Positions 39,426 through 64,000 of a stretch of DNA of 64,000 nt are shown piece after piece (the first letter of the stretch is position 1; every line of letters starts with the position of its first letter). Source of the DNA: Candidatus Omnitrophota bacterium (GTDB lineage: Bacteria; Omnitrophota; Gorgyraeia; Pluralincolimonadales; Pluralincolimonadaceae). The notes beneath the pieces are model-generated. The model ran no database searches and was not told the DNA's origin. It was given only the letters and a program-made list of their open reading frames with translations. A program made the position numbers and the translations under genes. The stretch covers positions 49,431 through 113,430 of the forward strand of contig JBAZJG010000002.1 of the NCBI GenBank assembly GCA_041651455.1, read 5' to 3'.

Positions 39426-39438
39426 AGGAGAAGCAAAT

Positions 39439-41043: not shown

Positions 41044-41062
41044 GGTGAAGGAGGTGTTGAAT

Positions 41063-43306: not shown

Positions 43307-43312
43307 TGAAGA

Positions 43313-43987: not shown

Positions 43988-44007
43988 TAGATTATTACGG
44001 AGGATGC

Positions 44008-48000: not shown

Positions 48001-51000
48001 TATCATGGAAGCCAAAGCTATACGTATTATGCCAATCTCGGAACGATCGATACACCCGCGGATATGTCGATATCTTTCTGGTATAGGCCGGTTGGGACAG
48101 CGAGCGGTCCGCGCATACTCAGTGATTACAGTTCGGTAACAGGAAAATTCCAGAAGGATATAAGCTTCAACGCCGGAGACAGGCTCTGCTTTTCCCAATA
48201 TCATTCCGACGGTTCAGCCGTAAACGTTTATGCGGATTATGTAAGTATGAACAAATCTTTCCGCTGGCAGCATGTCGCTATCATAAGGGATGATACCGCG
48301 AAATCCATCAGGCTTTATGCCGATGGAAAGCTTGTCGGCACGTCCTATTATCCGGGAAAGACGGTCCTGCCGATCTCGGACGCCGGGGACCTGTATATAG
48401 GGCAGTACGGCAATCTTGTATCAAATTCTTACCAGTATATTTGCAGTATCGATGAGCTTGCCATATACAACCGTGTCTTGACCGAAGAAGAGATAATGAG
48501 TAAAGCGGGCATGCAGTATGTGCCGGGGGAAGGCAAGACATTTGCTTCAAGGACAATGGATGCCGGCCTTGCTGTCGACTGGAGCCGGGTCCTTTGGGGC
48601 GAGAATACATCCGGCTACGGCAACGGCCTGAACGGGACGCCGGTAACGGGCCAGGAGATCCAGGCCGACGAAAAGGGCCTTGTAGGATTATGGCACTTGA
48701 ACGGAGATTGGATCGATGTCATGGGCAGGAGGAACGGCACCCGTTATGGCACTACGGCCTTTGATTCGACGGGACAGAAGCTTGGTTCTGCGTGCGACAC
48801 GTTTGACGGAAGCACTCAGAGCGTGCTTTTCGGGAATATCGGGAGCACTATAAGGACGGTAGAATTTTGGCTTAATTCTACAAGTTATAATTGCTCGGTC
48901 ATGGAACTCAAGGATAACGATAACTATATAGGTATAGGGTATGTATCCTACTCTGATACGCGATATATAAAATTGACCGGCACGCCGTTGAGCTCGGGAA
49001 CCATCTATGTAAACGGGGATGTATACGGGCAGGCGAAGATAAATCCCGGCTGGAACCATGTCGTTATCGTTACGACCTCAGACATACCGGCCTCATCTAT
49101 GAGGCTCGGTGAAGCAGCCAACGTCTATTATAACGGCAAGCTCGATGAAGTTGCCGTATACAACCGTATTCTTTCACAAAGCGAGGCGAGGCAGCATTAT
49201 TTCGACCAGACCGGCGACGGCGGGCTGGTAGCCTTGTGGCATATGGACAACGACTGGACTGATGCCACCGGCAAGGGCCATGACGGTACCGCTTACAACG
49301 GAGCAACCTTTACCTCTGATTCAAAATTCGGAGCGGCGGCTGGAAGCTTTGACGGGACGGACGATTACGTAGTATTCAATGATGCCGATTTCCCGAAATA
49401 TTCCGGCGTGATGACCATCGAGGGATGGTTCAAGACTACCGCGGCGGCCAACCAGGCGATATTTTCCTATGGGACACCTGCGAATTCATTCAGCGTCCTT
49501 CTCTATATAGACGGCTCCAACACTCTCAGCAGTTACGCTTACTGCGTGCAGAGTCCGACCTTAGGGACCAGTTACACTAATATCCAGGCTAACGATGGGC
49601 AATGGCACCATTTTGCGGATGTCATGAGGTTCTACGACAGGCAAACCTCGGGCACGAGGATGTACCATTTCTTATATTTCGACGGGGAATACAGGAGTCA
49701 GTCTATTTGCTATACCTTGAGGGATACCGGAAGCGGCATATGGGTCGGTGCCCGCCCGGACGGGACGATGCCGTTTAACGGAAGCCTGGATGAGATAGCC
49801 GTATACAGCAGGTATTTGCATGGGCAGGAGATTGCGGACCACTACCTGCGCGGTGTGAACGATATAAAGATGCAGGTCTCGACTGACGGAGGAACTACCT
49901 GGAAAGACAACGAGGGCAGCGCCGGTAGCTATATAACCGAGACGCCCGCGTCGCTTAGCCTCGGCGGTCCTTCGCAGACCATAAAGTACCGCGCGACGCT
50001 ATCAACAACCGATTACAGGTACAGCCCGTTACTGAGGGGCGTAGATTTCAGCAAAGCGAGCTACCCGACCGACGACCCGTACGTGATACCCGATGCCGGG
50101 CAGGAGTATATAGGCTACCTGACATCGTTCACGCAGACGGTAGGCTCGAGGAACCTGGGCACGATCAAATACCTGCTTTCGAACGACGACGGTTCGACCT
50201 GGTACCGCTGGGACGGCTCCAACTGGGTCTCGACGACGTCAGGTTATGTCGCCGCAAATACGGCATCCGATATCAACACGAATATAGGGCAGTTCTACGA
50301 AGACGTCGGCGCCGGGACTCTCAACTTCAAGGCGTTCCTGCATTCAGACGGCATACAGCCCGTAGAGCTCGATAACGTGAGCCTCGGATATGCCCCGGGC
50401 AAGATAACGGTCACGACGCCGAACGGCGGCGAAACACTGCTGTCGGGCGGTTACGCCGATATCAAATGGACCGCCGCGGGTACCATAGCAAGCGATACGT
50501 GGGACCTCGCATATTCCACGGACGGCGGCTCGAATTGGACTCCTATAGCCGCCAACCAGTCAATAGCGGCCGTGGAAGGTGTATATACGTACAACTGGAG
50601 CAGCATACCTAATGTCCAATCGGTTACCACAAAGGTCAAGGTCACTAACAACGCGGAGAACAGCATACACGATGCTTCTAATGCCAACTTCACGCTGGCG
50701 CTCGGTTTCCAGGTGACCGCGCCGAACGGCGGGGAGAAATGGTATGTAGGCTCGAGCGGTAATAATATCCAGTGGAAGTCCTCGAGCGGCATGGGCACGA
50801 CGGTGCGACTGTATTACACGCTCAACGGCACCGATTATACCGCTATAACGACAAGCACGTCTAACCAGTATTCGGGCGTCAACACATACGCGTGGACGAT
50901 AGGTTCTTCGGCCTCGGACGACGGCCTTTATTCGGAAACCGCGAAGATAAAGGTGACGAACCAGAGCGGGCAGAATGAGGACGCCTCCGACGCCGTATTC

Positions 51001-54000
51001 ACCATGGCGGGCATGAAGCTTATCCAGCCGAACGGGAGCGAGCAGATAAAGAGGGGCGGAAGCTATGAGATACAGTGGAAGTCTGCCGGCGCCGGCAGTA
51101 CGGTAAAGCTGGAATATTCCACCGACAGCGGCGAGACCTGGAACACGATCACCGAGAGCGAATCCAATTCCGCCGGCACAGACAGCTATGAATGGAACGT
51201 TCCGGCCGGTTGCGAACTCTCCTCAGAGGCGAAAGTAAGGATAACTTCAAACAGCGACGCGAACCTGACGGACGCCTCGGACGGGATCTTCACGATCGCC
51301 GACCTTATTGTAAACTCCCCGAACGGCGGAGAGATATGGCAGGCGGGCAGTACGTCGAACCCGGTAACATGGGTTTTTGTCGGCTCTGCCGGCGTCGGAA
51401 AGGTTACGGTATCCTACTCTACCGACAGCGGCTCGACGTGGACGGTATACAATAATAATGTCGATAACCAGCAGGGGCCGAACAGCTACAACTGGACAGT
51501 CCCGTTCGCCCCGTCGGACAATATCAGGGTCAAGGTTGTGGACAATACGTCCGGCTCGACGATGGCGGACAGCTCCGACGGCAATTTCAGCATAGCGGGC
51601 GTTAAGGTGACGCTGCCGAACGGCTCAGAGACATACGGCATCGACAGCGCGAACTTCATCAGGTGGTCCGCAAATAACGCGAGCGATACCGGTGCGATCT
51701 ATTATTCGGTGGACGGCGGTTCTACTTGGAGCGCATCCCCGATAGTAGGAGCCGAAGAGGTATTGCTGAGCCAGGGCGCTACCGGTTTCAGCTGGACGCC
51801 TTCGAACGATCCGGGAACGGTTCCGACGGTCCAGGCGAGGGTCAAGGTTGTCGCGTTGACGCCGGCATCCGATGCGAATCCTCCGGTGCCGTTGACGCTG
51901 CCGATGGAAGACAGCTCTGACGCGAACTTTACTATACGGGGCCTGAGGGTCACGGCGCCGGCATTGAACGCCAGCTGGCTGCTGGGAAGCTCGCATGATA
52001 TCCAGTGGACCTCTGCAGGCACGACCGCCGAGACCGCCACATTGTACTATTCCGTCATCGGCGATTTCTCGGACCAGGTAGCCATAACGGCGACGCCTGT
52101 CACTAATAATGAGATATATCCCGGCAATAACAGCTATACATGGAATATTGGAGCGTCGGTCACCCCGTCGGCGACAGCGAAGATAAAGGTGACGGCGGGC
52201 GCTTATAACGCCCTGTCCCCGGCCTTCACATTGAAGGGCATAAAGGTCACTGCGCCGGCATCGGGCGCGACCGTGACACAGAACGTCGCTTCCTCGGTGA
52301 TATGGAGTTCGGCAGGGATTGACGGCAACGTCAACATATATTACAGCAGCGACAACGGCTCCACCTATTCAGAGACGCCTATAAACGCATCGCCGATAAA
52401 CATCACAGCCGGCACATATTCCTGGACGCCGAACACGGCGATACTGACTCCTTCAACGTCCGCGAAACTCAAGATACAGGTTGTCTCCGGTTCTGATTCG
52501 GGGCTTTTCGCGGAATCGGCGCAATTCACCCTGAAAGGCATAAAGATAAGCGCGCCTGCGGCCGGGACGACATGGGAACTGGGCCAGACCCAGAGCATAA
52601 CATGGACCGCGGCGGGGGTGGGCTCCACATGCAATATATATTACGCGGCTGACGGGACGAATTTCACAAGTACCGTCAATAGCTCGGCCGTACTGCTCTC
52701 CGCCGGGACATATTCCTGGACTATCCCGGCGTCGATTACGCCGTCGAACGGCACCGCGAAGATCAGGATAACCTCTGATACGAACGTTTCCTCGAGTTCC
52801 GGAGCGTTCACGATAAAAGGTATCAAGGTTACGAACCCTACCGCCACCACGATATGGGAAGTCGGGGAATCCGTGACGATATCGCACGCGGTTGTCGGAG
52901 CATTGAGCGCCCTTAATGTATATTACGTGAAAGACGGGATCGAGACCCAGATAGGCACGGTTATGCCTAACAGCAGTTTCCCCTGGGTCGTCACTGCCGA
53001 CGCGGAGGGGCCCGGTATCATAATCAGATTGAAGAGCTTCATGCCGAATTATACCGGCGACTCCCCGGCGTTTCAGATAGTCGGCGAGGCGTCTCTGGCC
53101 GTCAGCGAGCCGTCAGCAGCGTCCTCGTGGAAGGTCTCGGAGACGAATACCATAACCTGGACGAGGAGCGGCAGCACCGAAAGGACGTTTACCGTGGAGT
53201 ATGACGATAACGCGGCTTTCACCTCGCCCACGCCGATAACCGGCACGCCGGCGTATGACGGCGCGGGGCTATACAGCTTGGATTGGGCTGTCCCGGATAA
53301 CGTAGGTACGTGCTACATAAAGGTCACCGATACCGGAAATTCCAATATTACGGATATCTCCGAGGCGTTTAAGATAATACCGAAGTTCAGGGTCAATATA
53401 CCCAACGGCGGCGAGACGCTCTACGCGCTCAAGCCCGGTACGACCGTCAACTGGGGAACGACCGGAAGCGCGGGCACAGTGGACCTGTATTATTCGACGG
53501 ATACGCCCCTGTACGAGACATGGACAAAGATCAATTCCACGGCTATCCCCGATAACGGGACTGGGACCGTGGAGAGGATAACCAGCTACTCCTGGACCGT
53601 TCCGAATATCCAGAGTACTGTTGTCAAGATAAAGGTCCAGGCGAGCAGCGCGGGCCTGTCCGGGGCCTACGATGTCTCGGACGACGTGTTTACAATCAAG
53701 TATTATAAGGTTACATGGAACGTGAAGAGCGCGACGACCGGGGATCATCTCGACAAGCTCTTCGTCATAGATTCATCCGGTTGGTCGGAAGCAGACCTCA
53801 CTTCGCCGATCGAGCGTTATTACCCGTACGGCGATTCATACAACACGAACTGGTCGAGGGCGGACTATTTCGATAAGGCCGAACGCGGATGGGAGACCGA
53901 CCAGGACAACAAAGTGATCAATATAACGATGAGCGAGTCCTCGCTGGCGCCCGAATACCATGTCATGAGCAACTTCTCGTATAACGCCTCGCAGGACAAG

Positions 54001-55644
54001 TTCCTTATCAACTCCTGGGTCGAGAGGGGCGGCGTAATACTGGCAAAGCCCTCGTCGTGCGTAGTCCATATTTATGACGCGTCGGGCGGCCCGATACAGC
54101 AGCTTACGGCGACAACGTATGACGCGAACGGCGTCTTCTGGCAGGAATGGCCGACGACGAACCTTGACCAGAACGCGATGTATTTCGCGAAGGTCGACAT
54201 CGTCTACTCGGGAGAGACATATTCGTCGGGTTTGAGCTATTCGCTTAACATACCGAAGGCGATAGCGGGCCTCGGCACGACAGTCGCCCAGCAGCTCACG
54301 GACCTGCAGACGGCGATAGGCACGGACCTCGCCACACAGACGACCGCGATAGGCGCGAAGATAGACACGCTCGAGACATCCATAGGAACGAACCTCGACG
54401 CGAAGATCAGCACCGTCAAGACGGATATCGCGGCGGTCAAGACGGTCGTTGACAAGATATCGGAGGATGTAGGCGCGATCGGAGGCGACCTCGCCACGCC
54501 GATATCCGAAGCGGTCGCCGAAGACCTCGCAGCGCAGCTTGCGAAAGGCATCCAGGCCGAGATACTCACGAGGCCGACATCCGCGGGATTCGGCACTGCT
54601 ACAGATATCAGGTTCAGGACCGCGACCGGCATGTCGCCGACCATAACAGTTTACGACGCTAATAATGTCGCGAGGATCGCGGCGGCGGCGATGGTAGAGG
54701 TCGGCACCACCGGTATCTATGAATACGCGCTGACGCCTCAGAGCGCATGGGGCGCGGGCGAATATACGGTGGTCTGCGAAGAGCCCACTAAGAACGCGAT
54801 AGACAGCATGGTGCTCAGCGTCTCCGAGAGCGTTGGGGCGGGCGCAGGCACCGACGAAGGCATGGTCAACTCGATCAACGCGACGGTCACGACGATAGAT
54901 TCGAACGTGAAGACGATGCTTTCCAAGGTCAACACCCTTCCGGATGACACGACCGACGTAGGCACGTCCGTTTCGAGCCTGCTCGCTACGGTCGGCAAGA
55001 CCACCGATGCGGCCGGCACCAATACGCTGTTCGGGAAGATAGCTTCGGCGCAGGGCGATATAACTGCCTTTAAGGCCGATATAACCAATTATGTCGACGG
55101 GGTCGAAACGACGCTCGGCACGACGGCCGATGCCGCCGGGACGAATACGGTCTACGGCAAGATAAGGTCGCTCGAACAGACGCTCAGCGCTTTGGGCCCG
55201 GACGGGGCAAAGGCTAACAAGGAGCTCCTTGCGGCGAAGGACCAGGCCGCGGCGGCCTCCAAGGCGGCTGAGGACATAAAGAAGATGATAGCGGCGGGCG
55301 GCAAGAATGCCGAAGCTTACGGAGCACTGCAGAAACTTGCCGGAGACCTCGCGAAACTGCAGGCCGCAAACTCCAGGATAGGCAGCTCGGTGACCGCTGA
55401 TTCTATCACCGATTTTATCAGGGACACAAGGGCGAAACTCGCGCAGGTCGCGATGAAGGAGGGCTACGATAACCTCGTCCCCGAGACCGGCGAAGTCGGC
55501 CAGGTCAACCTTACAGAGGAAGCCGATGTCGAAGACCTCAGGAACAACATGACCGAACTCAAGGCCCTGCTGTCGCAGGTCAGGAGCCTGCTCGACAAAC
55601 AGGTCAACGCGCCTGTCGTCAAGAGCTGGATAGAAGGCAAATAA
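45001..55644 (+). CDS. Giant (3547 aa) membrane-anchored surface protein. Five-bladed propeller-like repeats, about four LamG/concanavalin-like domains, about 14 Ig-like PNGGE...W repeats (Kre9/KNH-like), and a C-terminal coiled-coil/fibre-like region
   Basis: N-terminal TM. Five P(S/T/C)VIKDG.(T/S)YKMWY...IGYATSPDGINWTK blades. G(L/V)(V/I)(G/A)L(Y/W)H(F/L/M)(D/N)(G/D/S)...(G/D)...GHNGT LamG-like starts repeated four times. Repeated (V/I)TAPNGGE.W..G....I.W...G and LYYS.DGG.TW modules. Ala/Thr-rich heptad-like C-terminus. Confidence 0.8.
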   Translation: MNKPKTGQGYRFTTVVLSSILLLLSSAYLYMVWAVETKAWDFATASDYTVYKGDGSEDTDNDYIIVDEGVAKLVAQLETESDDSLSEYAQGTKSSTVTGPDTSLVLTKSGGVYNSTGEYTSRVFDGGAGGNVWTAVKSSTFNTNNRGGVRWAFENGPLTGYAVLLNRGTQFDASAIYSPSVIKDGETYKMWYTGNVNSVYRIGYATSTDGLNWTRVDGPQQYLSVINISTDRFDKNHAGFPSVIKDGETYKMWYSGYNGEFWRVGYATSPDGINWTKYDGPEADLSVLDVSLGRFDSAHAYAPTVIKDGSVYRMWYMGFDGDIYRIGYATSPDGINWTKVNGYMSGGAVLEPGLDFESGVVYYPCVIKDGSFYKMWYYQTGVINYAFSPDGITWTKVNGLARVGGVLEYYSPYQFCSNYCSYPCVIKDGSTYKMWPGGNGVAFGYATSTEDTIDTTWTYFQVRSGTTANLTDGFVGPDGTSATYYPGNYHKLVSAGNFNTSHRYAQFKLYMYTSGGGLNTPVVDWAGFTGTKVNRIDDTLSDFSSGSFTSNTTTLPVSVQTPFVGLAQKDNGEYNAVGSYTSRVFDGGDGAVWNSIAWTKGMSAIDPSEETGLVGLYHFDSSAADSSGHGNDGTWTGAPAYDTTNQRFGTGCFKNNGGANYITLPLSDTLKRMDAFTFSYWTMYDFGENSAFSVGLYDSRNTSKQDISIQSYVNSAYLYARDRQLNAFVHLTSSYQLSYWLSYYKEWQHIAVTWDGGPVPQSFAVYVNGIQLNVDSKYITDSYSAFYKIRELLYPIEIGHCYTPSADRYFSGYADEIAIYNRALSADEILRLYQKGAGIKFQCRSSATNPPTGNFVGPDGTANTYYSTAAGSNFGAEIPANRYFQYKAYFEGCNSNTPALESVKVTYNTSSDFTDDSRSEFDEGSYDNSKTKCHLPGVSIENTYKAGVLPTPDDDPGLIALYHFDGDLVDASGNGHNGTLYDPNNYMLFLPNSKVGSYAFYHGSQSYTYYANLGTIDTPADMSISFWYRPVGTASGPRILSDYSSVTGKFQKDISFNAGDRLCFSQYHSDGSAVNVYADYVSMNKSFRWQHVAIIRDDTAKSIRLYADGKLVGTSYYPGKTVLPISDAGDLYIGQYGNLVSNSYQYICSIDELAIYNRVLTEEEIMSKAGMQYVPGEGKTFASRTMDAGLAVDWSRVLWGENTSGYGNGLNGTPVTGQEIQADEKGLVGLWHLNGDWIDVMGRRNGTRYGTTAFDSTGQKLGSACDTFDGSTQSVLFGNIGSTIRTVEFWLNSTSYNCSVMELKDNDNYIGIGYVSYSDTRYIKLTGTPLSSGTIYVNGDVYGQAKINPGWNHVVIVTTSDIPASSMRLGEAANVYYNGKLDEVAVYNRILSQSEARQHYFDQTGDGGLVALWHMDNDWTDATGKGHDGTAYNGATFTSDSKFGAAAGSFDGTDDYVVFNDADFPKYSGVMTIEGWFKTTAAANQAIFSYGTPANSFSVLLYIDGSNTLSSYAYCVQSPTLGTSYTNIQANDGQWHHFADVMRFYDRQTSGTRMYHFLYFDGEYRSQSICYTLRDTGSGIWVGARPDGTMPFNGSLDEIAVYSRYLHGQEIADHYLRGVNDIKMQVSTDGGTTWKDNEGSAGSYITETPASLSLGGPSQTIKYRATLSTTDYRYSPLLRGVDFSKASYPTDDPYVIPDAGQEYIGYLTSFTQTVGSRNLGTIKYLLSNDDGSTWYRWDGSNWVSTTSGYVAANTASDINTNIGQFYEDVGAGTLNFKAFLHSDGIQPVELDNVSLGYAPGKITVTTPNGGETLLSGGYADIKWTAAGTIASDTWDLAYSTDGGSNWTPIAANQSIAAVEGVYTYNWSSIPNVQSVTTKVKVTNNAENSIHDASNANFTLALGFQVTAPNGGEKWYVGSSGNNIQWKSSSGMGTTVRLYYTLNGTDYTAITTSTSNQYSGVNTYAWTIGSSASDDGLYSETAKIKVTNQSGQNEDASDAVFTMAGMKLIQPNGSEQIKRGGSYEIQWKSAGAGSTVKLEYSTDSGETWNTITESESNSAGTDSYEWNVPAGCELSSEAKVRITSNSDANLTDASDGIFTIADLIVNSPNGGEIWQAGSTSNPVTWVFVGSAGVGKVTVSYSTDSGSTWTVYNNNVDNQQGPNSYNWTVPFAPSDNIRVKVVDNTSGSTMADSSDGNFSIAGVKVTLPNGSETYGIDSANFIRWSANNASDTGAIYYSVDGGSTWSASPIVGAEEVLLSQGATGFSWTPSNDPGTVPTVQARVKVVALTPASDANPPVPLTLPMEDSSDANFTIRGLRVTAPALNASWLLGSSHDIQWTSAGTTAETATLYYSVIGDFSDQVAITATPVTNNEIYPGNNSYTWNIGASVTPSATAKIKVTAGAYNALSPAFTLKGIKVTAPASGATVTQNVASSVIWSSAGIDGNVNIYYSSDNGSTYSETPINASPINITAGTYSWTPNTAILTPSTSAKLKIQVVSGSDSGLFAESAQFTLKGIKISAPAAGTTWELGQTQSITWTAAGVGSTCNIYYAADGTNFTSTVNSSAVLLSAGTYSWTIPASITPSNGTAKIRITSDTNVSSSSGAFTIKGIKVTNPTATTIWEVGESVTISHAVVGALSALNVYYVKDGIETQIGTVMPNSSFPWVVTADAEGPGIIIRLKSFMPNYTGDSPAFQIVGEASLAVSEPSAASSWKVSETNTITWTRSGSTERTFTVEYDDNAAFTSPTPITGTPAYDGAGLYSLDWAVPDNVGTCYIKVTDTGNSNITDISEAFKIIPKFRVNIPNGGETLYALKPGTTVNWGTTGSAGTVDLYYSTDTPLYETWTKINSTAIPDNGTGTVERITSYSWTVPNIQSTVVKIKVQASSAGLSGAYDVSDDVFTIKYYKVTWNVKSATTGDHLDKLFVIDSSGWSEADLTSPIERYYPYGDSYNTNWSRADYFDKAERGWETDQDNKVINITMSESSLAPEYHVMSNFSYNASQDKFLINSWVERGGVILAKPSSCVVHIYDASGGPIQQLTATTYDANGVFWQEWPTTNLDQNAMYFAKVDIVYSGETYSSGLSYSLNIPKAIAGLGTTVAQQLTDLQTAIGTDLATQTTAIGAKIDTLETSIGTNLDAKISTVKTDIAAVKTVVDKISEDVGAIGGDLATPISEAVAEDLAAQLAKGIQAEILTRPTSAGFGTATDIRFRTATGMSPTITVYDANNVARIAAAAMVEVGTTGIYEYALTPQSAWGAGEYTVVCEEPTKNAIDSMVLSVSESVGAGAGTDEGMVNSINATVTTIDSNVKTMLSKVNTLPDDTTDVGTSVSSLLATVGKTTDAAGTNTLFGKIASAQGDITAFKADITNYVDGVETTLGTTADAAGTNTVYGKIRSLEQTLSALGPDGAKANKELLAAKDQAAAASKAAEDIKKMIAAGGKNAEAYGALQKLAGDLAKLQAANSRIGSSVTADSITDFIRDTRAKLAQVAMKEGYDNLVPETGEVGQVNLTEEADVEDLRNNMTELKALLSQVRSLLDKQVNAPVVKSWIEGK
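45535..45575 (+). repeat. 41-bp exact direct repeat (second copy at 45721-45761) inside the propeller region of the giant gene
   Basis: ccgtccgtcatcaaagacggcgagacatataagatgtggta occurs twice, 186 bp apart. Confidence 0.8.
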
Positions 55645-55695: not shown

Positions 55696-56265
55696 ATGCG
55701 TAAAATTTTTTTAACCACTTTCTCATTTCTTTTAATAATGACGGTAGTTTCTTCCGCGGCGGCCGCGGAGGTAGTGCTGAAGATACGCGCGGTAAACCCG
55801 CTGGAGAAGCCGGCGGAGACGGTCGTCAAGGAATACCTGCCGAAGGGCGTTACGGCAAAGGACGTCATAAACAAGGGTAAGTTTAAGATAGAATACGACA
55901 AGGCGAAAGACCTGTATTATGCCGAGCAGAAAGTCACACTAAAGCCCAAGGAGGTCCTTGTCCTGCAGGTCGAGGTGAAGGACGTATGGGTCGTGCCGGC
56001 GAAGAAGATCGACGCGCTGAGGGCGGAAGCGAAAAAGGCATACGCATCCAAGCCCGCAGACGCAAAGGGCTCAAAGACCGCGGATGACCTTTTCGCCGAG
56101 ATAAACAAGACGCTCGACAAAGTGGAAGCGCGCCAGCCGCAGAACACGATAGCGAAGGCGGGCGCGGAAGCGCATATGGAAGAATACTGGAAGGACGTCG
56201 AATCGATAAAACAGGCGGAGTCGGACATTAAACTCGTGAAGCTCCTGAATGAAAAAAAGAAATAG
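55696..56265 (+). CDS. Secreted protein carrying one copy of an uncharacterised roughly 150-aa periplasmic domain (paralogous to the sensor domains of the downstream diguanylate cyclase)
   Basis: Start moved to the ATG at 55696, which has a GGAGG Shine-Dalgarno. Signal peptide. VVLKIRAVNP...YLPKGV...D.W.V core shared with 56249..58132. Confidence 0.5.
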   Translation: MRKIFLTTFSFLLIMTVVSSAAAAEVVLKIRAVNPLEKPAETVVKEYLPKGVTAKDVINKGKFKIEYDKAKDLYYAEQKVTLKPKEVLVLQVEVKDVWVVPAKKIDALRAEAKKAYASKPADAKGSKTADDLFAEINKTLDKVEARQPQNTIAKAGAEAHMEEYWKDVESIKQAESDIKLVKLLNEKKK

Positions 56266-58132
56266 CTTACTGATCATAGCGCTTATGATGTGGGCTTCGG
56301 CGGCTCAGGCGGGCGTCGTCCTGAAGATGACCGCCGAGAACCCTTCCCAGTACGAATCGCGCGATGTCTCGGTAAGGTCGTTCCTGCCTTCGGGTGTGAA
56401 ACCGGAGAATATAATAAATAACGGCGGGCTTGAGGTCGCCTATGACGTCAAGCAGGGGAAATATTATGTCTTCAAGGACGTAAAGCTCGGCCCGGAAGAG
56501 AGCGTGACCTACGAAATAGAGGTCGAGGACATATGGAGGGTAGATGAGGCGTATCTCGCCTCGCTGACCGCGCATGCGAGGGACCTCTCCGAAAAGCTCA
56601 GGAGGACGGAATATTCTGCGGTCGCCTCAAAGCTTAATGAGATAGTGGCTTCCGATGCCGCCGCGATACTGAAAAAACAGGATGCGTCGGGCACCGATAA
56701 GGTCGCGCCGGTCGAGCATATAAACGCCTACGAGGCGAATAAGGCCCTGCTCGACAAGATGCGCAAGGATATAGGGACGATGGAGAACCTCGTGATAGGG
56801 CTCGGGAAGGACGCCGGAAAGATAATGGGCGAAAGCTCAACGGGTTCGCGTTCGCTCGATGAGGTTTCCGCCGAGGCGGGCAGGAGCATAGAGTCCTCCG
56901 GCCTTGTCGGACAATCATCGCCGGGTACCGGAAAGCCAAAGACAATAACGCTCAAGATAGAGGTAACCAACCCGTCGAGAACGGAAGCCCGCAGGATCCC
57001 GGTTAATTATTACCTTCCTCCCGAGATCCGCAAAGATGATATAGTCGACGCGAAAGAACTCGAGCCGCGCCTTGATATCGAGAGGTCGGTATATTATATG
57101 CACCATCCCGGCGTGGAGCTCGGTCCAGGCGAGAGCAGGGTCTTCGAGATAACGGTGAAGGACAAATGGTCGGTAAGCGAACAGGTCCTACAAGCGCTCA
57201 AGAAGCAGGCGGAGGCCCTTACGGAGCTTGCCTCCTCGACGAAGGCCGATCCTGCGGTGGAAGCCCTTGCGAAGGAAGTGACGGAAAAGATAGACGCCAT
57301 ACTCGGGAAACAGGCGTCGCTGTCCGACACGTCGGAATATTACTCGCAGCAGCAGCAGGTCGCCGAGATACAGAGGTCGATAGGGAAGATGGAAGGGCTT
57401 TTGAAACAGGCCGGCGTCAGCGAAGAGCGCCTCAAGAAGATCCAGGATATTATGATAAAGGGCAGGTCCGATTACGGCACGGGCCCCGACCCTAAGGGCG
57501 TAAAGATGCTCGCGGGCACGATATTCAAGGGCAAGGCGCCGTCCACCGCCACGACCTGGAAGATAATATATATTATCCTCATATGTCTCGGCGTCATGAG
57601 CGCGGTATTCTACTTCTCGCAGGTAGAGCAGAGGCAGATGACGCTCTTCGACCAGCTGACAGGCGCATTCTCGAGGAAATACATAAACGAGAAGATAAGG
57701 GAGGAGGTAAAAGTCGCGAAAGCCGCAGGGATCGAATGTTCGCTGCTGCTGATAGACGTCGATAAGTTCAAGAACATCAACGACACTTACGGGCACGCGG
57801 TCGGCGACGTCATACTAAAGGAGTTCGTCATCGCGCTCAGGAAAAGCATACGCGCCACAGACCCCGTCGGAAGGTTCGGCGGCGATGAGTTCCTCGTCGT
57901 GCTCCCGACGGCGAACAAGGTAAAGGCGGCTGATATTGCCGAGAGCATTCGGAAAACCATCGAGGGTCACATAATAAAGATGGAGGACAAGGCCTACAGC
58001 GTCACCTCGAGCATCGGCGTCGCGACATATCCCGGCGACGCGGGTACGGCTGACGACCTCTTCAATAAGGCGGACAAGGCGATGTACGATTCGAAGGCGA
58101 AAGGCGGGAACGCGGTGACCGCGAATGTTTAA
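56249..58132 (+). CDS. Diguanylate cyclase (GGDEF) with a periplasmic sensor region built from two copies of the same uncharacterised domain, then one TM
   Basis: Signal peptide; VVLKMTAENP... and TLKIEVTNP... repeats; TM IIYIILICLGVMSAVFYF; GGDEF domain with GGDEF motif (RFGGDEFLVV). Confidence 0.85.
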   Translation: MKKRNSLLIIALMMWASAAQAGVVLKMTAENPSQYESRDVSVRSFLPSGVKPENIINNGGLEVAYDVKQGKYYVFKDVKLGPEESVTYEIEVEDIWRVDEAYLASLTAHARDLSEKLRRTEYSAVASKLNEIVASDAAAILKKQDASGTDKVAPVEHINAYEANKALLDKMRKDIGTMENLVIGLGKDAGKIMGESSTGSRSLDEVSAEAGRSIESSGLVGQSSPGTGKPKTITLKIEVTNPSRTEARRIPVNYYLPPEIRKDDIVDAKELEPRLDIERSVYYMHHPGVELGPGESRVFEITVKDKWSVSEQVLQALKKQAEALTELASSTKADPAVEALAKEVTEKIDAILGKQASLSDTSEYYSQQQQVAEIQRSIGKMEGLLKQAGVSEERLKKIQDIMIKGRSDYGTGPDPKGVKMLAGTIFKGKAPSTATTWKIIYIILICLGVMSAVFYFSQVEQRQMTLFDQLTGAFSRKYINEKIREEVKVAKAAGIECSLLLIDVDKFKNINDTYGHAVGDVILKEFVIALRKSIRATDPVGRFGGDEFLVVLPTANKVKAADIAESIRKTIEGHIIKMEDKAYSVTSSIGVATYPGDAGTADDLFNKADKAMYDSKAKGGNAVTANV

Positions 58133-58352
58133 CGTCTCCGTAATGGACCACGCCCAGGTGATATTCGAGGGCAAGGCCGCGAGCGTGATCCTTCCGGGAG
58201 ATTACGGCGAGTTCGAGATCCTTGATTTCCACAGGCCCATATTGAGTCTCCTCAAAAGAGGCATAATAATGATAGACGGGGTAAGTTTCCCGGTGGCAAA
58301 GGGTATCGCAAGGTTCCATAAGAACGAATTGGTAGCATTAGTGGAGCTCTGA
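58125..58352 (+). CDS. atpC: F-type ATP synthase epsilon subunit (N-terminal beta-sandwich domain only, 75 aa)
   Basis: Pattern VIFEGKAASVILPGDYGEFEILDFHRPILSLLKRGII matches the epsilon N-terminal domain. Confidence 0.65.
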   Translation: MFNVSVMDHAQVIFEGKAASVILPGDYGEFEILDFHRPILSLLKRGIIMIDGVSFPVAKGIARFHKNELVALVEL

Positions 58353-58353
58353 C

Positions 58354-58566
58354 ATGCGCAATTTCATAATAATACTCGTTATGTTCGTCGTGATACTCGG
58401 CCCTTCCGCCGTGATAGCGGCAATAGGGTTCGCCGCGATACGCGCGCTCGGGCGCAACCCGTCGGCCGCGCCGAAGATACTACCCGCGATGATAATTGCG
58501 CTGCTTTTCGCTGAAGCGATAGCGGTCATAGCGATGCTGATAATGTTCCAACTGTTCGGAAAATAG
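58354..58566 (+). CDS. atpE: F-type ATP synthase c subunit (70 aa, 2 TM, conserved carboxylate in FAEAIA)
   Basis: Two-helix hairpin with an RNPSAAPK loop and an E in helix 2. Confidence 0.65.
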   Translation: MRNFIIILVMFVVILGPSAVIAAIGFAAIRALGRNPSAAPKILPAMIIALLFAEAIAVIAMLIMFQLFGK

Positions 58567-58578
58567 CCGGAGGACTGG

Positions 58579-59292
58579 ATGGAGATACTTATCCCTATGA
58601 TAATATTGCAGGTCGTGACGTTCGCCGCGCTCGTCTTCGTCCTGCGTAAGCTTATGTATTCCGCTTCGGCCGAAGAGGCGAAACGGCTCAAGCAGATGGA
58701 AGAGGAGTACCTGAGGCGCACGCAGGACCTCGCCGCCAAGATGGAATCGGTGGACAAGGAATACAAGGCCAAGGTCACGATAGCCGAAGAGGAGGCTCGC
58801 CGCCTGAGGGAAGAGGCGAAGGTGGAGGCCGAGAAGATAAAGGAAGAATCGCTTACCAAGGCGCGCGACGAGAGCGAGCGAATAGTCAACCAGGCGGTAA
58901 ATACCCGCAGCAAGATAAAGCAGGAGATAGAATCGCAGGTGCAGTCGAAGGTGCTCGACACCTCGCGCAAGCTTGTCGCGAAGGTGCTCTCTTCAAAACA
59001 GCTGAAGCTGATGCACGAAGGCCTTATCGAGGAGCTTATTTCCGAGCTCGAGAAGGCCGACGGGAGGAAACTCACCGAAGCCCCGGACAGGGGCGAAGTA
59101 TCTGTCCCGTATGAGATGGGCAAGGAATGGGTCGATAAGATAGCCGCCGCGGTCTCGAAGAAGGCGGGCAGGAAGGTCTCGCTCTCCGAAAAGACCGACA
59201 AAGACGTCGTGGCCGGCGCGGTCATAAAACTCGGGAGCATAATCATAGACGGGAGCATCACCGGAAGATTAAAGGATGCCTATACAGACTGA
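58579..59292 (+). CDS. atpF: F-type ATP synthase b subunit with a delta-like C-terminal segment
   Basis: N-terminal TM plus a long charged coiled coil. C-terminus VVAGAVIKLGSIIIDGSITGRL resembles the C-terminus of delta/OSCP. Confidence 0.6.
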   Translation: MEILIPMIILQVVTFAALVFVLRKLMYSASAEEAKRLKQMEEEYLRRTQDLAAKMESVDKEYKAKVTIAEEEARRLREEAKVEAEKIKEESLTKARDESERIVNQAVNTRSKIKQEIESQVQSKVLDTSRKLVAKVLSSKQLKLMHEGLIEELISELEKADGRKLTEAPDRGEVSVPYEMGKEWVDKIAAAVSKKAGRKVSLSEKTDKDVVAGAVIKLGSIIIDGSITGRLKDAYTD

Positions 59293-60742
59293 AGCGATCA
59301 AGATACGCGAGGTCGGGCAGATACGCGAGATAAAGAAGGATATCGCGAAGGTGACCGGCCTTGAAAACTGCATGAACGGGCAGCTCGTCGACATAACGGA
59401 GAACTCAAAGGGCATGGTAATGGGTTTCGTCAACGACGAGGTACCCGTCCTGCTGCTCGGCAAGACCGACGAGGTGCGTGTAGGCGACAACGTATACAGC
59501 AGGATGGAGCCGTTCAAGATACCCGTCGGGGAAAATTTCATCGGGCGGGCGGTCAACGCGCTCGCGGAGCCGATGGACGGCAGGGGCCCGATAGAGCCGG
59601 GCGGGCATTATTCAGTGTTCAGGGACGCGCCGTCCGTGCTCGAGAGGGTGCCGATAACCGAGACGTTCGAGACAGGCGTGCTTATAATCGATTCGACGAT
59701 ACCGATCGGCAGGGGCCAGAGGGAGCTCATCATCGGCGACAGGATGACCGGCAAGACCGCAATATGCACCGACGCGATAATAAACCAGAAGGGCAAGGAT
59801 ATTATCTGCATATACTGCTGCGTCGGCCGCGCCTATTCGACGCTCGAGAGGATAGCCGAGACACTTAAAAATTCCGGTGCGATGGATTACACGATGATCG
59901 TCGCCGCGACGGCATCGTGCTCCGCCGGAGAACAGTACCTTGCCCCGTATACCGCCTGCGCGCTCGGCGAGTATTTCATGGACAAGGGAAAGCACGTCTT
60001 TGTCGTCTTCGACGATCTCACGAAGCATGCATGGATATACAGGCAGATATCGCTGCTGCTGGAGCGCCCGCCCGGACGCGAGGCGTATCCCGGCGACGTC
60101 TTCTATCTGCATTCCCAGCTCATGGAGCGCGCCGGAAAGCTTAGCCCCGAATGCGGCGGCGGGTCGATGACGTTCTTTCCCATAGTCGAGACCCTGCAGG
60201 GCGACGTGACCGGATATATATCCTCCAACCTCGTCTCGATGACGGACGGCCAGGTATATCTTAATACCCAGCTTTTCAACGAGGGGTTCAAGCCCGCCGT
60301 GGACGTCGGGCTTTCGGTATCCAGGATCGGCAACAAGGCGCAAAGCCCCGCGATGAGGGAGTTGTCCGCGATGCTGCGGCTCGAATACATACAATACAAC
60401 GAACTGCTGAAGATCACGCGCTTCAAGACCGGCACCTCCGACGAAGTAAACGTGCGCCTTAAGCACGGCGAGGCGCTGACACACCTGTTCGCGCAGAACA
60501 GGAACGACCCCTATCCCGCCGTAAAGGAGCTCGTGCTGCTCTATGCGCTCAGGCGCAACGTCCTAGACGTATTGTCAAAGGCGGAGATAACGGATTTCAA
60601 GGACAGGATACTGGGTTTCGCTCAGAAAGAGTACCCGTCGCTGGTTGGGGAGATAGCGGAGAAGAAAGAGCTTACGCCGGAGATAAAGAAGGCCCTAAAC
60701 GACTGTATCGTCGCTTTCTTCAAAGGGAAGGGCGGGAAATAG
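59276..60742 (+). CDS. atpA: F-type ATP synthase alpha subunit
   Basis: Walker A GDRMTGKT and alpha-subunit motifs (REAYPGDVFYLHSQLLERA). Confidence 0.9.
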   Translation: MPIQTEAIKIREVGQIREIKKDIAKVTGLENCMNGQLVDITENSKGMVMGFVNDEVPVLLLGKTDEVRVGDNVYSRMEPFKIPVGENFIGRAVNALAEPMDGRGPIEPGGHYSVFRDAPSVLERVPITETFETGVLIIDSTIPIGRGQRELIIGDRMTGKTAICTDAIINQKGKDIICIYCCVGRAYSTLERIAETLKNSGAMDYTMIVAATASCSAGEQYLAPYTACALGEYFMDKGKHVFVVFDDLTKHAWIYRQISLLLERPPGREAYPGDVFYLHSQLMERAGKLSPECGGGSMTFFPIVETLQGDVTGYISSNLVSMTDGQVYLNTQLFNEGFKPAVDVGLSVSRIGNKAQSPAMRELSAMLRLEYIQYNELLKITRFKTGTSDEVNVRLKHGEALTHLFAQNRNDPYPAVKELVLLYALRRNVLDVLSKAEITDFKDRILGFAQKEYPSLVGEIAEKKELTPEIKKALNDCIVAFFKGKGGK

Positions 60743-62982
<2,240 letters not shown>

Positions 62983-62983: not shown

Positions 62984-64000
62984 ATGGCGTTAAGGCTCGG
63001 CGATATACTTGTGGAAAAGAAGATCATAACCGCCTATGAGCTCGAGCAGGCGGTAAAGGAGCAGCAGAAGACGAAGGAGCCCCTCGGCTCCGTGCTCGTC
63101 AGGATGGGCTTCATATCCGAAAGGCAGCTGCTGCAGATACTCGCCGAACAGCAGGGGATATCCTTCGTCGAGTTCAAGGACATCAGGATAGACGAGAATG
63201 CCGTCAAGAGCGTGCCCGCGAAGTTCGCGGTGCACTACAAGGTCATGCCGATAGCGATAGACGGGCACCTTCTAACGATCGCGACGTCGAACCCGTTCGA
63301 CATGTGGCCGGTAGACGACCTCGAGACGAACCTCGGTTTCCGCGTCGAGCGCGTGCTCTCGTCGTCGTCGGATATCCTCGAGATGATACGCAAATATTAC
63401 GGCGTCGGCGCCGACACGATCGAGAAGATACTCGCCGAGGAGTCCAAGGAGAGCAGGGCCGAAGAGGCGCAGCCGGAGAAGGTCGAGGACCTCACGAAGA
63501 TGGCGACGGACGCGTCGGTCATCAAGCTCGTGAACCAGATACTCCAGCAGGCGATAAACGACAGGGCGACCGACATCCATATCGAGAGGTTCAGGGAAGA
63601 CCTGCGCCTCAGGTACAGGATAGACGGTATTCTATACGATACGCAGATAGCGGGGGAGATCAGGTACCTCTATAACGCGATAATATCGAGGATAAAGATC
63701 ATGTCGGGGCTCAATATTATCGAGCGCCGCATCCCGCAGGACGGCCGCGCGAAGGTCAAGATCGGCAGCGAGGAATACGACCTGCGCATCTCGATACTCC
63801 CGACGCTCTACGGCGAGAATATCGTTATAAGGATACTGCCGACGACGATGCTCTTTAACATATCGCAATTGGGCCTCTCGAAGCAGTACCGGGAGATATT
63901 CGAACAGCTGCTGAAGAAGCCGCACGGCATCATCTTCCTGACCGGCCCGACGGGAAGCGGCAAGACGACGACCCTCTACGCGTGCCTCAGCATGCTCAAC
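62984..64000 (+). CDS. Type II secretion / type IV pilus assembly ATPase (GspE/PilB/MshE family), 3' partial; N-terminal T2SSE_N domain with an MshEN-like RLGxxLVxxxIIT motif
   Basis: ATG at 62984. T2SSE_N-like N-terminus; Walker A GPTGSGKTTT near the window end. The gene is not in the ORF track because it runs off the window. Confidence 0.85.
   Translation, partial: MALRLGDILVEKKIITAYELEQAVKEQQKTKEPLGSVLVRMGFISERQLLQILAEQQGISFVEFKDIRIDENAVKSVPAKFAVHYKVMPIAIDGHLLTIATSNPFDMWPVDDLETNLGFRVERVLSSSSDILEMIRKYYGVGADTIEKILAEESKESRAEEAQPEKVEDLTKMATDASVIKLVNQILQQAINDRATDIHIERFREDLRLRYRIDGILYDTQIAGEIRYLYNAIISRIKIMSGLNIIERRIPQDGRAKVKIGSEEYDLRISILPTLYGENIVIRILPTTMLFNISQLGLSKQYREIFEQLLKKPHGIIFLTGPTGSGKTTTLYACLSMLN

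What the first reader, a model, noticed from the sequence alone, without database searches (positions are those of the whole stretch)
55696..58132. Uncharacterised roughly 150-aa periplasmic domain present three times: once as a standalone secreted protein and twice as the sensor of a diguanylate cyclase
The secreted protein at 55696..56265 and the two periplasmic halves of the GGDEF protein share the core (V/I).LK(I/M).(A/V).NP...10-15 aa...(Y/F)LP......(D/E).I.......(I/V).Y.......Y......V.L.P.E...(L/Y).(V/I).V.D.W.V, followed by a helical segment. I do not recognise it as a named sensor family (not PAS, Cache, CHASE or 4HB). A sensor domain that is also produced as a free secreted paralogue next door suggests a ligand-binding or decoy pair feeding c-di-GMP synthesis. 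The gene pair sits directly downstream of the giant surface protein and upstream of the ATPase with the MshEN-like motif.
Basis: seen in the sequence. Interest (0 to 1): 0.55.

Follow-up and report, generated by a model that had tools for sequence, protein, structure and literature searches.

The report
Giant-adhesin docking module fused to cyclase
The thrice-repeated domain is real and unannotated, but it looks like the membrane-side docking module for the neighbouring giant surface protein of an Omnitrophota bacterium rather than a small-molecule sensor; in this lineage it has gained a c-di-GMP-making enzyme.

Summary

The "sensor" reading is only partly supported. A profile search finds 930 clusters. 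Of the 169 family proteins examined, most are signal peptide, two units, one conserved TM helix and a ~15-residue tail, with no output domain. GGDEF is a minority add-on.

In 14 of 15 related loci with downstream DNA the gene lies next to the known Omnitrophota "symbiotic" F-type-like ATPase and MshE pilus genes, and after a giant or large upstream gene wherever upstream DNA is held. In 12 relatives the units and TM helix are fused to the giant protein's C-terminus. Split giants end at the fusion point (…PVVxxWxE), and mature A and B start with the next strand.

Best reading: the units dock or anchor the giant protein's C-terminus. Here that state may drive c-di-GMP synthesis, read by the MshEN ATPase downstream. 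The mechanism is inferred, not shown. It is a new domain family in a partly described system.

The parts
55696..56265 (+). Protein A: signal peptide (55696-55767), then one unit (55768-56262), secreted to the periplasm with no TM helix. It is closest to the unit-1 type.
   Evidence: ORF and Shine-Dalgarno. Unit profile hit at 2e-57. AlphaFold2 model pLDDT 93. Mean identity to other proteins' unit 1 is 26-30%, versus 22-25% to unit 2.
56249..58132 (+). Protein B: signal peptide, unit 1, linker, unit 2, conserved juxtamembrane segment and TM helix, then a GGDEF diguanylate cyclase domain.
56309..56809 (+). B unit 1 (aa 21-187). The mature N-terminus after AQA|G is the first beta strand.
   Evidence: Unit profile hit at 1.6e-62. 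Signal peptide read from the sequence.
56939..57418 (+). B unit 2 (aa 231-390).
   Evidence: Unit profile hit at 4.8e-54.
57512..57625 (+). Conserved juxtamembrane motif and the single TM helix (AGTIFKGKAPSTATTWKIIYIILICLGVMSAVFYFSQV). This is the best-conserved stretch of the family.
   Evidence: Invariant columns F406 to I423 in alignment A2. Position frequencies in 86 members: P 94%, TT 94/90%, W 100%, II 79/97%, F 92%, L 80%, S 74%, F 88%. Hydropathy.
57644..58111 (+). GGDEF domain. The I-site RATD and active-site GGDEF lie at 57851-57892.
   Evidence: Pfam PF00990 2.4e-41; TIGR00254 2.7e-49. Motifs.
45001..55644 (+). Giant secreted surface protein of 3547 aa: 4 Laminin_G_3 domains, Ig-like repeats and a C-terminal helical region. 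Its last 12 residues NAPVVKSWIEGK (55606-55641) are the proposed docking strand.
   Evidence: Pfam. Residues 2187-3545 align to P0041 273-1588, E 1.7e-149, directly abutting P0041's unit 1. The C-terminal motif is conserved in all 10 split-type giants examined.
58125..62982 (+). F-type-like ATPase operon: epsilon 58125-58352, c 58354-58566, b/delta fusion 58579-59292, alpha 59276-60742, gamma 60743-61594, beta 61591-62982. There is no subunit a. The epsilon start overlaps B's stop.
   Evidence: Pfam. Overlap. Synteny in 14 of 15 relatives.
62984..64000 (+). MshE-type T2SS/T4P assembly ATPase, cut by the window end, with an N-terminal MshEN domain. It is the candidate c-di-GMP reader.
   Evidence: Pfam MshEN 2e-18 and T2SSE 4.8e-52. 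Tandem motif compared with the published consensus.
37880..44880 (+). Upstream part of the same pilus/T2SS-like locus: AAA_22 (MshM/ExeA-like) 37880-38749, unknown 38727-39425, secretin 39412-41043, TPR 41045-42094, histidine kinase 42095-43282, OmpR-type response regulator 43313-43987, Rotamase_2 PPIase 44008-44880.
   Evidence: Pfam. A T2SS-like locus with a Rotamase_2 PPIase upstream of Omnitrophota giant genes is described in 10.1101/2023.11.21.568195.

Best explanation
The unit is a beta-sandwich plus three-helix bundle of about 165 aa. It is the periplasmic, membrane-proximal docking and anchoring module for the C-terminus of the giant surface protein encoded just upstream.

The ancestral, common form of the family is signal peptide, unit, unit, one conserved TM helix and a very short cytoplasmic tail. 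It is encoded between a giant-protein gene and the Omnitrophota F-type-like ATPase and MshE-type pilus/T2SS genes. In some lineages it is covalently the end of the giant protein. Where the genes are split, as here, the giant protein ends with a conserved strand (PVVKSWIEG). That strand most likely pairs with the exposed first strand of a unit by strand addition, on B unit 1 or on the soluble paralogue A.

In the window's lineage the anchor has gained a catalytically competent GGDEF domain a few residues after the TM helix. GGDEF domains work as dimers. Occupancy, oligomeric state or tension at the base of the giant protein would therefore set c-di-GMP synthesis. The nearest plausible reader is the MshEN domain of the pilus/T2SS ATPase 5 kb downstream, which would couple giant-protein status (assembly or prey contact) to pilus or pseudopilus activity. 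A would act as an adaptor or a competitor for the same tail.

Shown here: the repeat, the fold class, the family architectures, the fusion/fission with the giant protein, the synteny, and the intact GGDEF motifs.
For: 1. The repeat is real.
2. The unit model has pLDDT 93 and shows six strands plus three helices. No known sensor fold or family matches.
3. The profile search finds 930 clusters at E<=1e-3. Among the 169 family proteins examined (its best 150 plus the close relatives of A and B), 115 are two-unit without output, 17 (plus B) are two-unit with GGDEF, 24 are single-unit and 12 are fused to a large N-terminal region. The median tail of non-GGDEF members is 15.5 aa.
4. Fusion evidence: giant residues 2187-3545 of 3547 align to P0041 273-1588 (E 1.7e-149), with P0041's unit 1 starting at 1591. 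Other fused proteins also match.
5. All 10 split-type giants examined end 2-4 residues after ...P(V/I)(V/I)x(G/S/T)W(F/L/I)E. Mature A and B begin exactly at the next strand.
6. In the model of the natural fusion, the junction PVIKTWF forms a strand (E92-98) just before unit strand 1 (E102-109), with block pLDDT 74-82.
7. Unit gene then epsilon of the F-like ATPase is seen in 14 of 15 related loci with downstream DNA, usually followed by MshE, T2SSF and pseudopilins. A giant or large gene lies upstream wherever upstream DNA is held. This includes members only ~25-30% identical.
8. B has GGDEF and the RxxD I-site. 16 of 18 fused homologues keep GG[DE]EF.
9. The downstream ATPase has a Pfam MshEN domain and a largely intact tandem c-di-GMP motif.
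Against: - No direct evidence of binding between the giant tail and A or B. No multimer prediction could be run, and the fusion model is only moderately confident (mean pLDDT 75.5, pTM 0.36). I saw secondary structure, not contacts.
- The one fused-type locus recovered (L014) is not followed by epsilon.
- Only the best 150 of 930 family clusters could be inspected, so other architectures may exist.
- MshEN motif 1 has K where the consensus requires G/A/S, and motif 2 starts with P rather than R, so c-di-GMP binding is unproven. The MshEN motif is equally conserved in loci without a GGDEF fusion, so there is no correlation to support the link.
- How an inner-membrane-docked 3547-aa protein reaches the cell surface is unexplained.
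Confidence: 0.5

Rival explanations
1. The unit is a periplasmic small-ligand sensor that controls the diguanylate cyclase. A is a free ligand-binding or decoy paralogue.
For: - The units are periplasmic and sit directly N-terminal to a TM helix and an active-looking GGDEF domain.
- A is secreted and adjacent, and the pair is conserved in several relatives.
- The arrangement resembles the YfiN/YfiR logic (my own knowledge).
Against: - About 87% of the TM-anchored members examined have no output domain at all.
- The units occur as the C-terminal end of giant proteins.
- A also occurs with a GGDEF-less two-unit protein.
- The fold is a beta-sandwich plus three-helix bundle, with no match to known ligand-sensor folds.
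- The strongest conservation is in the TM and juxtamembrane segment, not in an obvious pocket.
Confidence: 0.12
2. The two-unit TM protein is a membrane subunit of the F-type-like ATPase, which lacks subunit a. It would be a stator or coupling element whose conserved TM helix packs against the c-ring or the b/delta subunit. Its periplasmic units would hold the giant protein, so that ATP-driven motion is passed to the surface protein. This is compatible with the docking model. The GGDEF domain would be a lineage-specific add-on.
For: - The unit gene lies immediately upstream of the ATPase genes in 14 of 15 loci. Its stop overlaps the epsilon start in the window, L001 and L002.
- No subunit-a gene is present in the window or in any related locus examined.
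- The TM helix has an unusually conserved face.
- Seymour et al. 2023 place the alpha subunit of these ATPases with the Mycoplasma type 2/3 F1-like ATPases, which drive gliding through giant surface leg proteins.
Against: - Adjacency alone does not show a complex.
- The residue after the invariant Trp is not a conserved Arg or Lys (K 30%, R 15%, L 15%, I 13%), so it does not mimic the subunit-a arginine.
- L015 keeps the unit protein and epsilon but has PilMN/PilO in place of alpha and beta.
- The fused member in L014 is not followed by ATPase genes.
Confidence: 0.2
3. The units are a substrate receptor or holding site of the T2SS-like machine. They hold the giant protein's C-terminus in the periplasm until it is pushed out through the secretin. 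The cyclase reports 'substrate loaded' to the MshE ATPase.
For: - The locus encodes a secretin, a GspE/MshE-type ATPase, GspF, and G- and K-type pseudopilins.
- The giant proteins have N-terminal Sec signal peptides.
- The docking motif sits at the extreme C-terminus.
Against: - Covalently fused versions with a C-terminal TM anchor cannot be released without proteolysis.
- No protease is encoded in the conserved core.
- Nothing distinguishes transient from permanent docking.
Confidence: 0.1

Closest known systems
Omnitrophota 'symbiotic' type-2/3-like F-type ATPase / type-4a pilus loci (Seymour et al. 2023, PMC10066038), and the T2SS-like + Rotamase_2 PPIase loci next to giant genes (West-Roberts et al. 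2023, bioRxiv 10.1101/2023.11.21.568195)
   Same: The gene neighbourhood is the same: a non-respiratory F-type ATPase homologue next to MshE/T4aP genes, a secretin and a Rotamase_2 PPIase upstream of a very large surface-protein gene, in Omnitrophota.
   Different: In the text I searched, these papers do not describe the two-unit TM protein, the secreted paralogue, its fusion with giant proteins or its GGDEF variant. Seymour et al. contains no occurrence of 'GGDEF' or 'di-GMP'. West-Roberts et al. mention PilZ genes downstream of giants and GGDEF domains inside giants, not this family. The window's giant is 3547 aa, far below their 'giant' threshold.
Membrane diguanylate cyclases with a periplasmic input domain and an adjacent periplasmic partner, e.g. 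YfiN(DgcN)/YfiR (my own knowledge; NCBIfam DgcN model hit on the GGDEF part only)
   Same: Both have a signal or TM segment, a periplasmic domain, a TM helix and a GGDEF domain with an I-site. Both have a small secreted protein encoded next door.
   Different: The periplasmic domain here is a duplicated beta-sandwich plus three-helix bundle, not PAS, Cache, CHASE or 4HB. The secreted partner is a paralogue of the input domain. Most family members have no cyclase at all.
LapD/LapG/LapA control of a giant adhesin by c-di-GMP in Pseudomonas (my own knowledge; NCBIfam LapD model hits the GGDEF region at 5e-09, far below its cutoff)
   Same: An inner-membrane GGDEF-family protein with a periplasmic domain is functionally tied to surface retention of a giant adhesin.
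   Different: LapD is a c-di-GMP receptor with degenerate GGDEF-EAL that signals inside-out through the protease LapG, and LapA is a T1SS substrate. Here the GGDEF looks active (outside-in signalling is proposed). No EAL, LapG-type protease or T1SS was found, and the periplasmic fold is different.
Vibrio cholerae MSHA pilus: c-di-GMP binding to the MshEN domain of MshE (PMC5013675, PMC7096442)
   Same: The downstream ATPase has Pfam MshEN plus T2SSE and a tandem 24-residue motif with a 5-residue spacer. The locus has MshM-like (AAA_22), secretin and MshN-like (TPR) genes.
   Different: Motif 1 has K at the conserved Gly turn and motif 2 begins with P. Binding is untested. A giant protein, the unit proteins and an F-like ATPase are inserted between the TPR gene and mshE.
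Mycoplasma mobile gliding machinery: F1-like ATPase plus giant surface leg proteins (PMC8406192, PMC11864180)
   Same: A non-respiratory F1-like ATPase is encoded with very large surface proteins in a tiny, host-dependent bacterium. Seymour et al. place the Omnitrophota alpha subunit with these type 2/3 ATPases.
   Different: The Omnitrophota operon keeps the c, b/delta, gamma and epsilon subunits. The organism is taken here to be diderm and has a secretin and pilus genes. No homology between the unit protein and any Gli protein was tested or seen.
Ig-like / Fn3-like beta-sandwich accessory domains (DUF11/CARDB-type; Fn3-like domains of GH3 and alpha-mannosidase), and Fap1-NR (three-helix bundle plus beta-sandwich adhesin region)
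   Different: All matches are below family thresholds. No structure matches sandwich and bundle together, and Foldseek returns no hit at E<=1e-3.

Membership tests
GGDEF diguanylate cyclase (PF00990 / TIGR00254), for the C-terminal domain of B | Profile match above the curated cutoff | tested here: met
   PF00990 141.6 bits (cutoff 23.8). TIGR00254 167.1 bits (cutoff 37.4).
GGDEF diguanylate cyclase (PF00990 / TIGR00254), for the C-terminal domain of B | Intact GG(D/E)EF active-site motif, with the RxxD inhibitory site five residues upstream | tested here: met
   RATDPVGRFGGDEF at aa 535-548.
GGDEF diguanylate cyclase (PF00990 / TIGR00254), for the C-terminal domain of B | c-di-GMP synthesis from GTP | not testable with these tools
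   Needs an enzyme assay.
Named periplasmic sensor domains (PAS, Cache/dCache, CHASE, 4HB_MCP and similar) | Significant profile match to a curated sensor family | tested here: not met
   Pfam and NCBIfam give no hit for the units at E<=1e-3 above cutoff. The best PDB-sequence profile search result is E 0.25.
Named periplasmic sensor domains (PAS, Cache/dCache, CHASE, 4HB_MCP and similar) | Characteristic fold (alpha/beta PAS-like or four-helix bundle) | tested here: not met
Named periplasmic sensor domains (PAS, Cache/dCache, CHASE, 4HB_MCP and similar) | Recurrent fusion to diverse signalling outputs (HK, MCP, GGDEF, EAL and others) | tested here: not met
   Only GGDEF was seen (18 proteins). 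124 TM-anchored members have tails of ~15 aa. Caveat: only the top 150 of 930 clusters were inspected.
DUF11 / CARDB-like Ig-fold repeats | Pfam match above the gathering score | tested here: not met
   PF01345 18.2 bits against a cutoff of 24.6, with no stretch passing on its own.
Omnitrophota 'symbiotic' F-type ATPase/T4aP locus (Seymour et al. 2023) | F-type alpha, beta, gamma and epsilon homologues co-located within 10 kb of type-4a pilus genes in an Omnitrophota genome | tested here: met
   Epsilon, c, b/delta, alpha, gamma and beta lie at 58125-62982, directly followed by MshE. A secretin is at 39412. Relatives are labelled Omnitrophota.
Omnitrophota 'symbiotic' F-type ATPase/T4aP locus (Seymour et al. 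2023) | The alpha subunit falls in the type-2/3 clade rather than the respiratory clade | not tested
   No phylogeny with reference sequences was run. Absence of a subunit-a gene in all loci examined is consistent with a non-respiratory complex.
MshEN c-di-GMP receptor domain (for the neighbouring ATPase, 62984-64000) | Pfam MshEN domain above cutoff | tested here: met
   PF05157 66.6 bits (cutoff 23.1).
MshEN c-di-GMP receptor domain (for the neighbouring ATPase, 62984-64000) | [quoted passage not shown] | tested here: inconclusive
   Motif 1 is RLGDILVEKKIITAYELEQAVKEQ, with K at the Gly position, so it fails even the relaxed pattern. The spacer is QKTKE. Motif 2 is PLGSVLVRMGFISERQLLQILAEQ, which fits the relaxed pattern.

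The most novel reading that the evidence does not exclude
The two-unit TM protein is the missing membrane partner of an F-type-like rotary ATPase that has no subunit a. It physically links that motor to a giant surface adhesin by strand-addition docking. Omnitrophota would then have an ATP-driven, envelope-spanning adhesin and pilus machine analogous in logic to the Mycoplasma mobile gliding motor. In the window's lineage the linker also makes c-di-GMP, so mechanical or occupancy state at the adhesin base would feed back on the MshE pilus ATPase.
Probability: 0.15. Interest if true: 0.85.

Novelty: new variant of a known kind. Interest (0 to 1): 0.55.

Why it matters
Omnitrophota are uncultured, ultra-small, probably predatory or parasitic bacteria. 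Their giant surface proteins, odd F-type ATPases and pili have each been noted, but not connected mechanistically. This family supplies a concrete link. It is a conserved, unannotated module that is either part of the giant protein or encoded right after it, and it always sits at the head of the ATPase and pilus genes.

It gives a testable docking motif, the giant protein's C-terminal PVVxxWxE strand paired with a unit's first strand. In the GGDEF-bearing lineage it also gives a testable signalling route, from giant-protein status to c-di-GMP to the MshEN ATPase.

For annotation, it defines a new domain family: at least 930 clusters at 50% identity, currently all 'hypothetical protein'. It also shows that 'novel periplasmic domain on a GGDEF protein' should not be read as 'ligand sensor' by default.

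Tried and rejected
- Word-indexed homologue searches with A, the B ectodomain and the unit profile found only 12-14 close relatives each and no new architectures. The exhaustive profile search was needed to see the family.
- `search for related loci` with the unit alignment failed because no 7-10 column block was conserved enough. An alignment including the TM motif worked, but its narrow pattern returned only 8 loci.
- The afdb50 fold library was unavailable.
- A neighbour-joining tree of concatenated units did not resolve whether GGDEF was gained once or several times. The GGDEF-bearing proteins fall in one broad region interleaved with others, some of which may be truncated ORFs, so I make no claim on this.
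- I considered whether the conserved TM helix mimics the subunit-a arginine. The position after the invariant Trp is variable, so I rejected the idea.
- I considered that the giant protein might be a pilin-like T4P substrate. Its N-terminus lacks the G|F..E prepilin signature and looks like a Sec signal (read). This was not pursued.
- I considered a PilZ identity for A, because West-Roberts et al. report PilZ genes after giant genes. A has no PilZ hit and is periplasmic.
- The alternative upstream start of A (55672) was rejected in favour of 55696.
Full report
**Observation**

The region holds two co-directional, overlapping genes.

- A runs 55696-56265.
- B runs 56249-58132. It overlaps A's last 17 nt, and its stop overlaps the start of the next gene by 8 nt.
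- A has a cleavable signal peptide (…SSAAAA|E) and no other hydrophobic segment.
- B has a signal peptide (…SAAQA|G), one TM helix at about aa 436-458, and a C-terminal GGDEF domain. The domain scores Pfam 2.4e-41 and TIGR00254 2.7e-49, with RATD-x5-GGDEF intact.

The three copies are significantly similar.

| Pair | BLASTP E-value |
|---|---|
| A vs B unit 1 | 2e-19 |
| A vs B unit 2 | 9e-11 |
| B unit 1 vs unit 2 | 3e-21 |

Scores lie 13-30 SD above shuffles. The similarity covers the beta-rich ~85 residues and also the following ~80 helical residues, so the unit is ~165 aa.

**Fold and family membership**

- An AlphaFold2 model of the unit, built from a 21-row alignment of units, has mean pLDDT 93. 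It shows six strands (a sandwich) followed by a three-helix bundle.
- Pfam and NCBIfam give nothing significant for the units. The best is DUF11 at 18 bits, below its cutoff.
- A unit profile against all PDB sequences gives nothing better than E=0.25.

The refutation criterion 'confident match to a known sensor family' is not met.

**How big the family is and what it looks like**

Word-indexed searches suggested a tiny family of 12-14 hits, one of them named Candidatus Omnitrophica. The exhaustive profile search changed the picture: 930 clusters (50% identity) at E<=1e-3, and 821 at <=1e-10.

I examined 169 proteins: the best 150 from that search plus the close relatives.

| Architecture | Count |
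|---|---|
| Two units, no output domain | 115 |
| Two units plus GGDEF (B itself in addition) | 17 |
| Single unit | 24 |
| Units after a large N-terminal region | 12 |
| Three units | 1 |

- For the 124 non-GGDEF members with a TM helix after the last unit, the median cytoplasmic tail is 15.5 residues.
- No other signalling output was seen.
- 16 of 18 GGDEF domains keep GG[DE]EF and 14 keep RxxD.
- Unit 1 and unit 2 are each closer to their counterparts in other proteins than to each other, so the duplication is old. A is closest to the unit-1 type.
- The best-conserved part of the whole protein is the juxtamembrane and TM segment: P-xxx-T-T-W-x-I-I-(Y/F/W)-x-I-L-x-F-L…S..F-F..W.

**Link to the giant protein**

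The large N-terminal regions of the fused members are homologues of the window's 3547-aa protein (45001-55644).

- Its residues 2187-3545 align to P0041 residues 273-1588 (E 1.7e-149), and P0041's unit 1 begins at residue 1591.
- P0044, P0052, P0158, P0165, P0168, P0169 and P0156 behave likewise.
- The window's giant ends …DKQVNAPVVKSWIEGK*. Fused proteins read …EEPVIKTWFESG|SVVLKMVVVNPS….
- In all ten split-type loci examined, the giant stops 2-4 residues after the same P(V/I)(V/I)x(G/S/T)W(F/L/I)E motif.
- Mature A (E|VVLKIRAVNP) and mature B (G|VVLKMTAENPS) begin exactly with the next strand.
- In an AlphaFold2 model of the natural fusion (P0041 C-terminal 539 aa; mean pLDDT 75.5), the junction segment PVIKTWF is a beta strand (E92-98) immediately preceding unit strand 1 (E102-109).

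This is a clean fusion/fission ('Rosetta stone') case with a precisely conserved break point. It argues that the giant protein's C-terminal strand and a unit form one structural module, assembled non-covalently where the genes are split. I could not inspect contacts or run a multimer prediction, so the docking itself is inferred.

**Genomic context**

- Upstream of the giant gene lie an AAA_22 ATPase, an unknown gene, a secretin, a TPR protein, a histidine kinase, an OmpR-type regulator and a Rotamase_2 PPIase.
- Downstream of B lie epsilon, c, a b/delta fusion, alpha, gamma and beta of an F-type-like ATPase, with no subunit a. Next comes an MshE-type ATPase with Pfam MshEN and T2SSE domains, cut by the window end.
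- The unit gene is directly followed by epsilon, or by the ATPase operon, in 14 of 15 related loci with downstream DNA. A giant or large gene lies upstream wherever upstream DNA is held. The ATPase genes are usually followed by MshE, T2SSF and pseudopilins. This includes members only 25-30% identical and a one-unit-plus-TM variant.
- GGDEF is present in the window, L003, L004, L006 and L013. It is absent in L001/L002, L008-L012, L015 and L016.
- An A-like gene is present in the window, L003, L004, L006 and L015.
- L015 has A plus a two-unit protein 44% identical to B but lacking GGDEF. The triplication therefore does not depend on the cyclase.
- The single fused-type locus recovered (L014) is not followed by epsilon.
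- All named relatives are Omnitrophica/Omnitrophota, apart from one record labelled Planctomycetia that is 96-98% identical to the window.

**What is already known**

- Seymour et al. [quoted passage not shown] They describe giant ORFs separately. Their text contains no 'GGDEF' or 'di-GMP'.
- West-Roberts et al. 2023 describe a conserved T2SS-like locus with a Rotamase_2 PPIase upstream of giant genes, PilZ genes downstream, and GGDEF domains inside some giants.
- A 2026 preprint surveys long proteins and their secretion and pilus flanks.

None of the text I searched mentions the unit family. The neighbourhood is therefore known in outline, while the module and its relation to the giant protein appear undescribed. 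This holds within the limits of an open-access full-text search.

**Mechanism**

My best reading has confidence ~0.5. The units are the membrane-proximal docking and anchoring module for the giant protein's C-terminus. B is that anchor with an added active cyclase.

- GGDEF domains act as dimers, and here the domain starts about 8 residues after the TM helix. The state of the ectodomain (tail docked or not, oligomeric state, tension) is thus well placed to set c-di-GMP output.
- The nearest plausible reader is the MshEN domain of the ATPase 5 kb downstream. It has the tandem 24-residue motif with a 5-residue spacer. Motif 2 fits the published relaxed pattern. Motif 1 fits except for K at the Gly turn. 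Binding is therefore plausible but unproven, and the motif is equally conserved in loci without GGDEF.
- A exposes the same N-terminal edge strand as B unit 1. It could cap the giant's tail as an adaptor or compete with B for it.

Rival readings:

- A classical small-ligand sensor (~0.12). This is weakened by the output-less majority and by the fusions.
- A subunit of the a-less F-like ATPase that couples it to the giant protein (~0.2, and compatible with docking).
- A T2SS substrate-holding site (~0.1).

**Verdict**

The finding is best filed as a new domain family and a new variant of a membrane diguanylate cyclase, embedded in a partly described Omnitrophota adhesin, ATPase and pilus locus. 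Interest is moderate (0.55). It would be high only if the motor-coupling reading proves true.

Noticed in passing
window 58125-62982; also L001, L004, L006-L013, L016, L017: The F-type-like ATPase operon (epsilon, c, b/delta fusion, alpha, gamma, beta) has no subunit-a gene in the window or in any related locus. Gene order varies (L016: alpha, alpha', epsilon, c, b/delta, gamma, beta). L008 and L010 carry two alpha paralogues. The c subunit keeps a Glu in TM2 (…LLFAEAIAV…). It corresponds to the 'symbiotic' ATPase of Seymour et al. 2023.
   Followed up: partly
L015 12323-14666: In one relative the unit protein is followed by the epsilon gene alone and then by PilM/PilN and PilO-like genes instead of the other ATPase subunits. 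This may mean epsilon has a role tied to the unit protein rather than to the F1 head.
   Followed up: no
L001 9613-9966; L002 2381-2734; L015 9654-9956: A 100-117-aa bAvd / 23S_rRNA_IVP-like four-helix-bundle gene sits between the giant gene and the unit gene in three relatives. bAvd proteins accompany diversity-generating retroelements, so the giant protein could be a diversification target. No reverse transcriptase was looked for.
   Followed up: no
window 36868-37452; L003 5880-6554: An IS200-like Y1 transposase lies just upstream of the pilus locus in the window. A gene of the same family is inserted between the giant gene and the A-like gene in L003.
   Followed up: no
window 1-4000: A low-GC stretch (0.34-0.43, against ~0.56 elsewhere) carries several ORFs without any Pfam match. 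It may be foreign DNA.
   Followed up: no
window 15610-30383: A cellulose/cellodextrin utilisation cluster: a GntR/LacI-type regulator, GH94 cellobiose-phosphorylase-like, three CBM30 proteins, GH9, a 960-aa Big_5/GH39-like protein, an ECF sigma factor, and GH3 with a PA14 insert. This fits the polysaccharide-degrading lifestyle proposed for Omnitrophota.
   Followed up: no
window 11345-13810 and 14711-15466: An 821-aa protein with a T2SSK-like N-terminal piece and a Laminin_G_3 domain (possibly a lectin-tipped minor pseudopilin), and a PEP-CTERM protein nearby.
   Followed up: no
window 42095-43987: A histidine kinase and OmpR-type response regulator pair is embedded between the TPR (MshN-like) gene and the PPIase/giant genes. 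This is a second possible regulatory input to the locus.
   Followed up: no
L006 (CAZYUB010000007.1) vs P0015: The contig 96-98% identical to the window is deposited as 'uncultured Planctomycetia bacterium'. The 91%-identical protein P0015 and all other relatives are labelled Omnitrophica/Omnitrophota. The Planctomycetia label is probably a taxonomic mislabel.
   Followed up: partly
L005 1914-3974 (P0026): A distant single unit (E 9e-5 to B) sits inside a 686-aa protein with a C-terminal SH3_3 domain, in an unrelated small-gene context. This was the only hint of the unit outside the giant/ATPase locus.
   Followed up: partly
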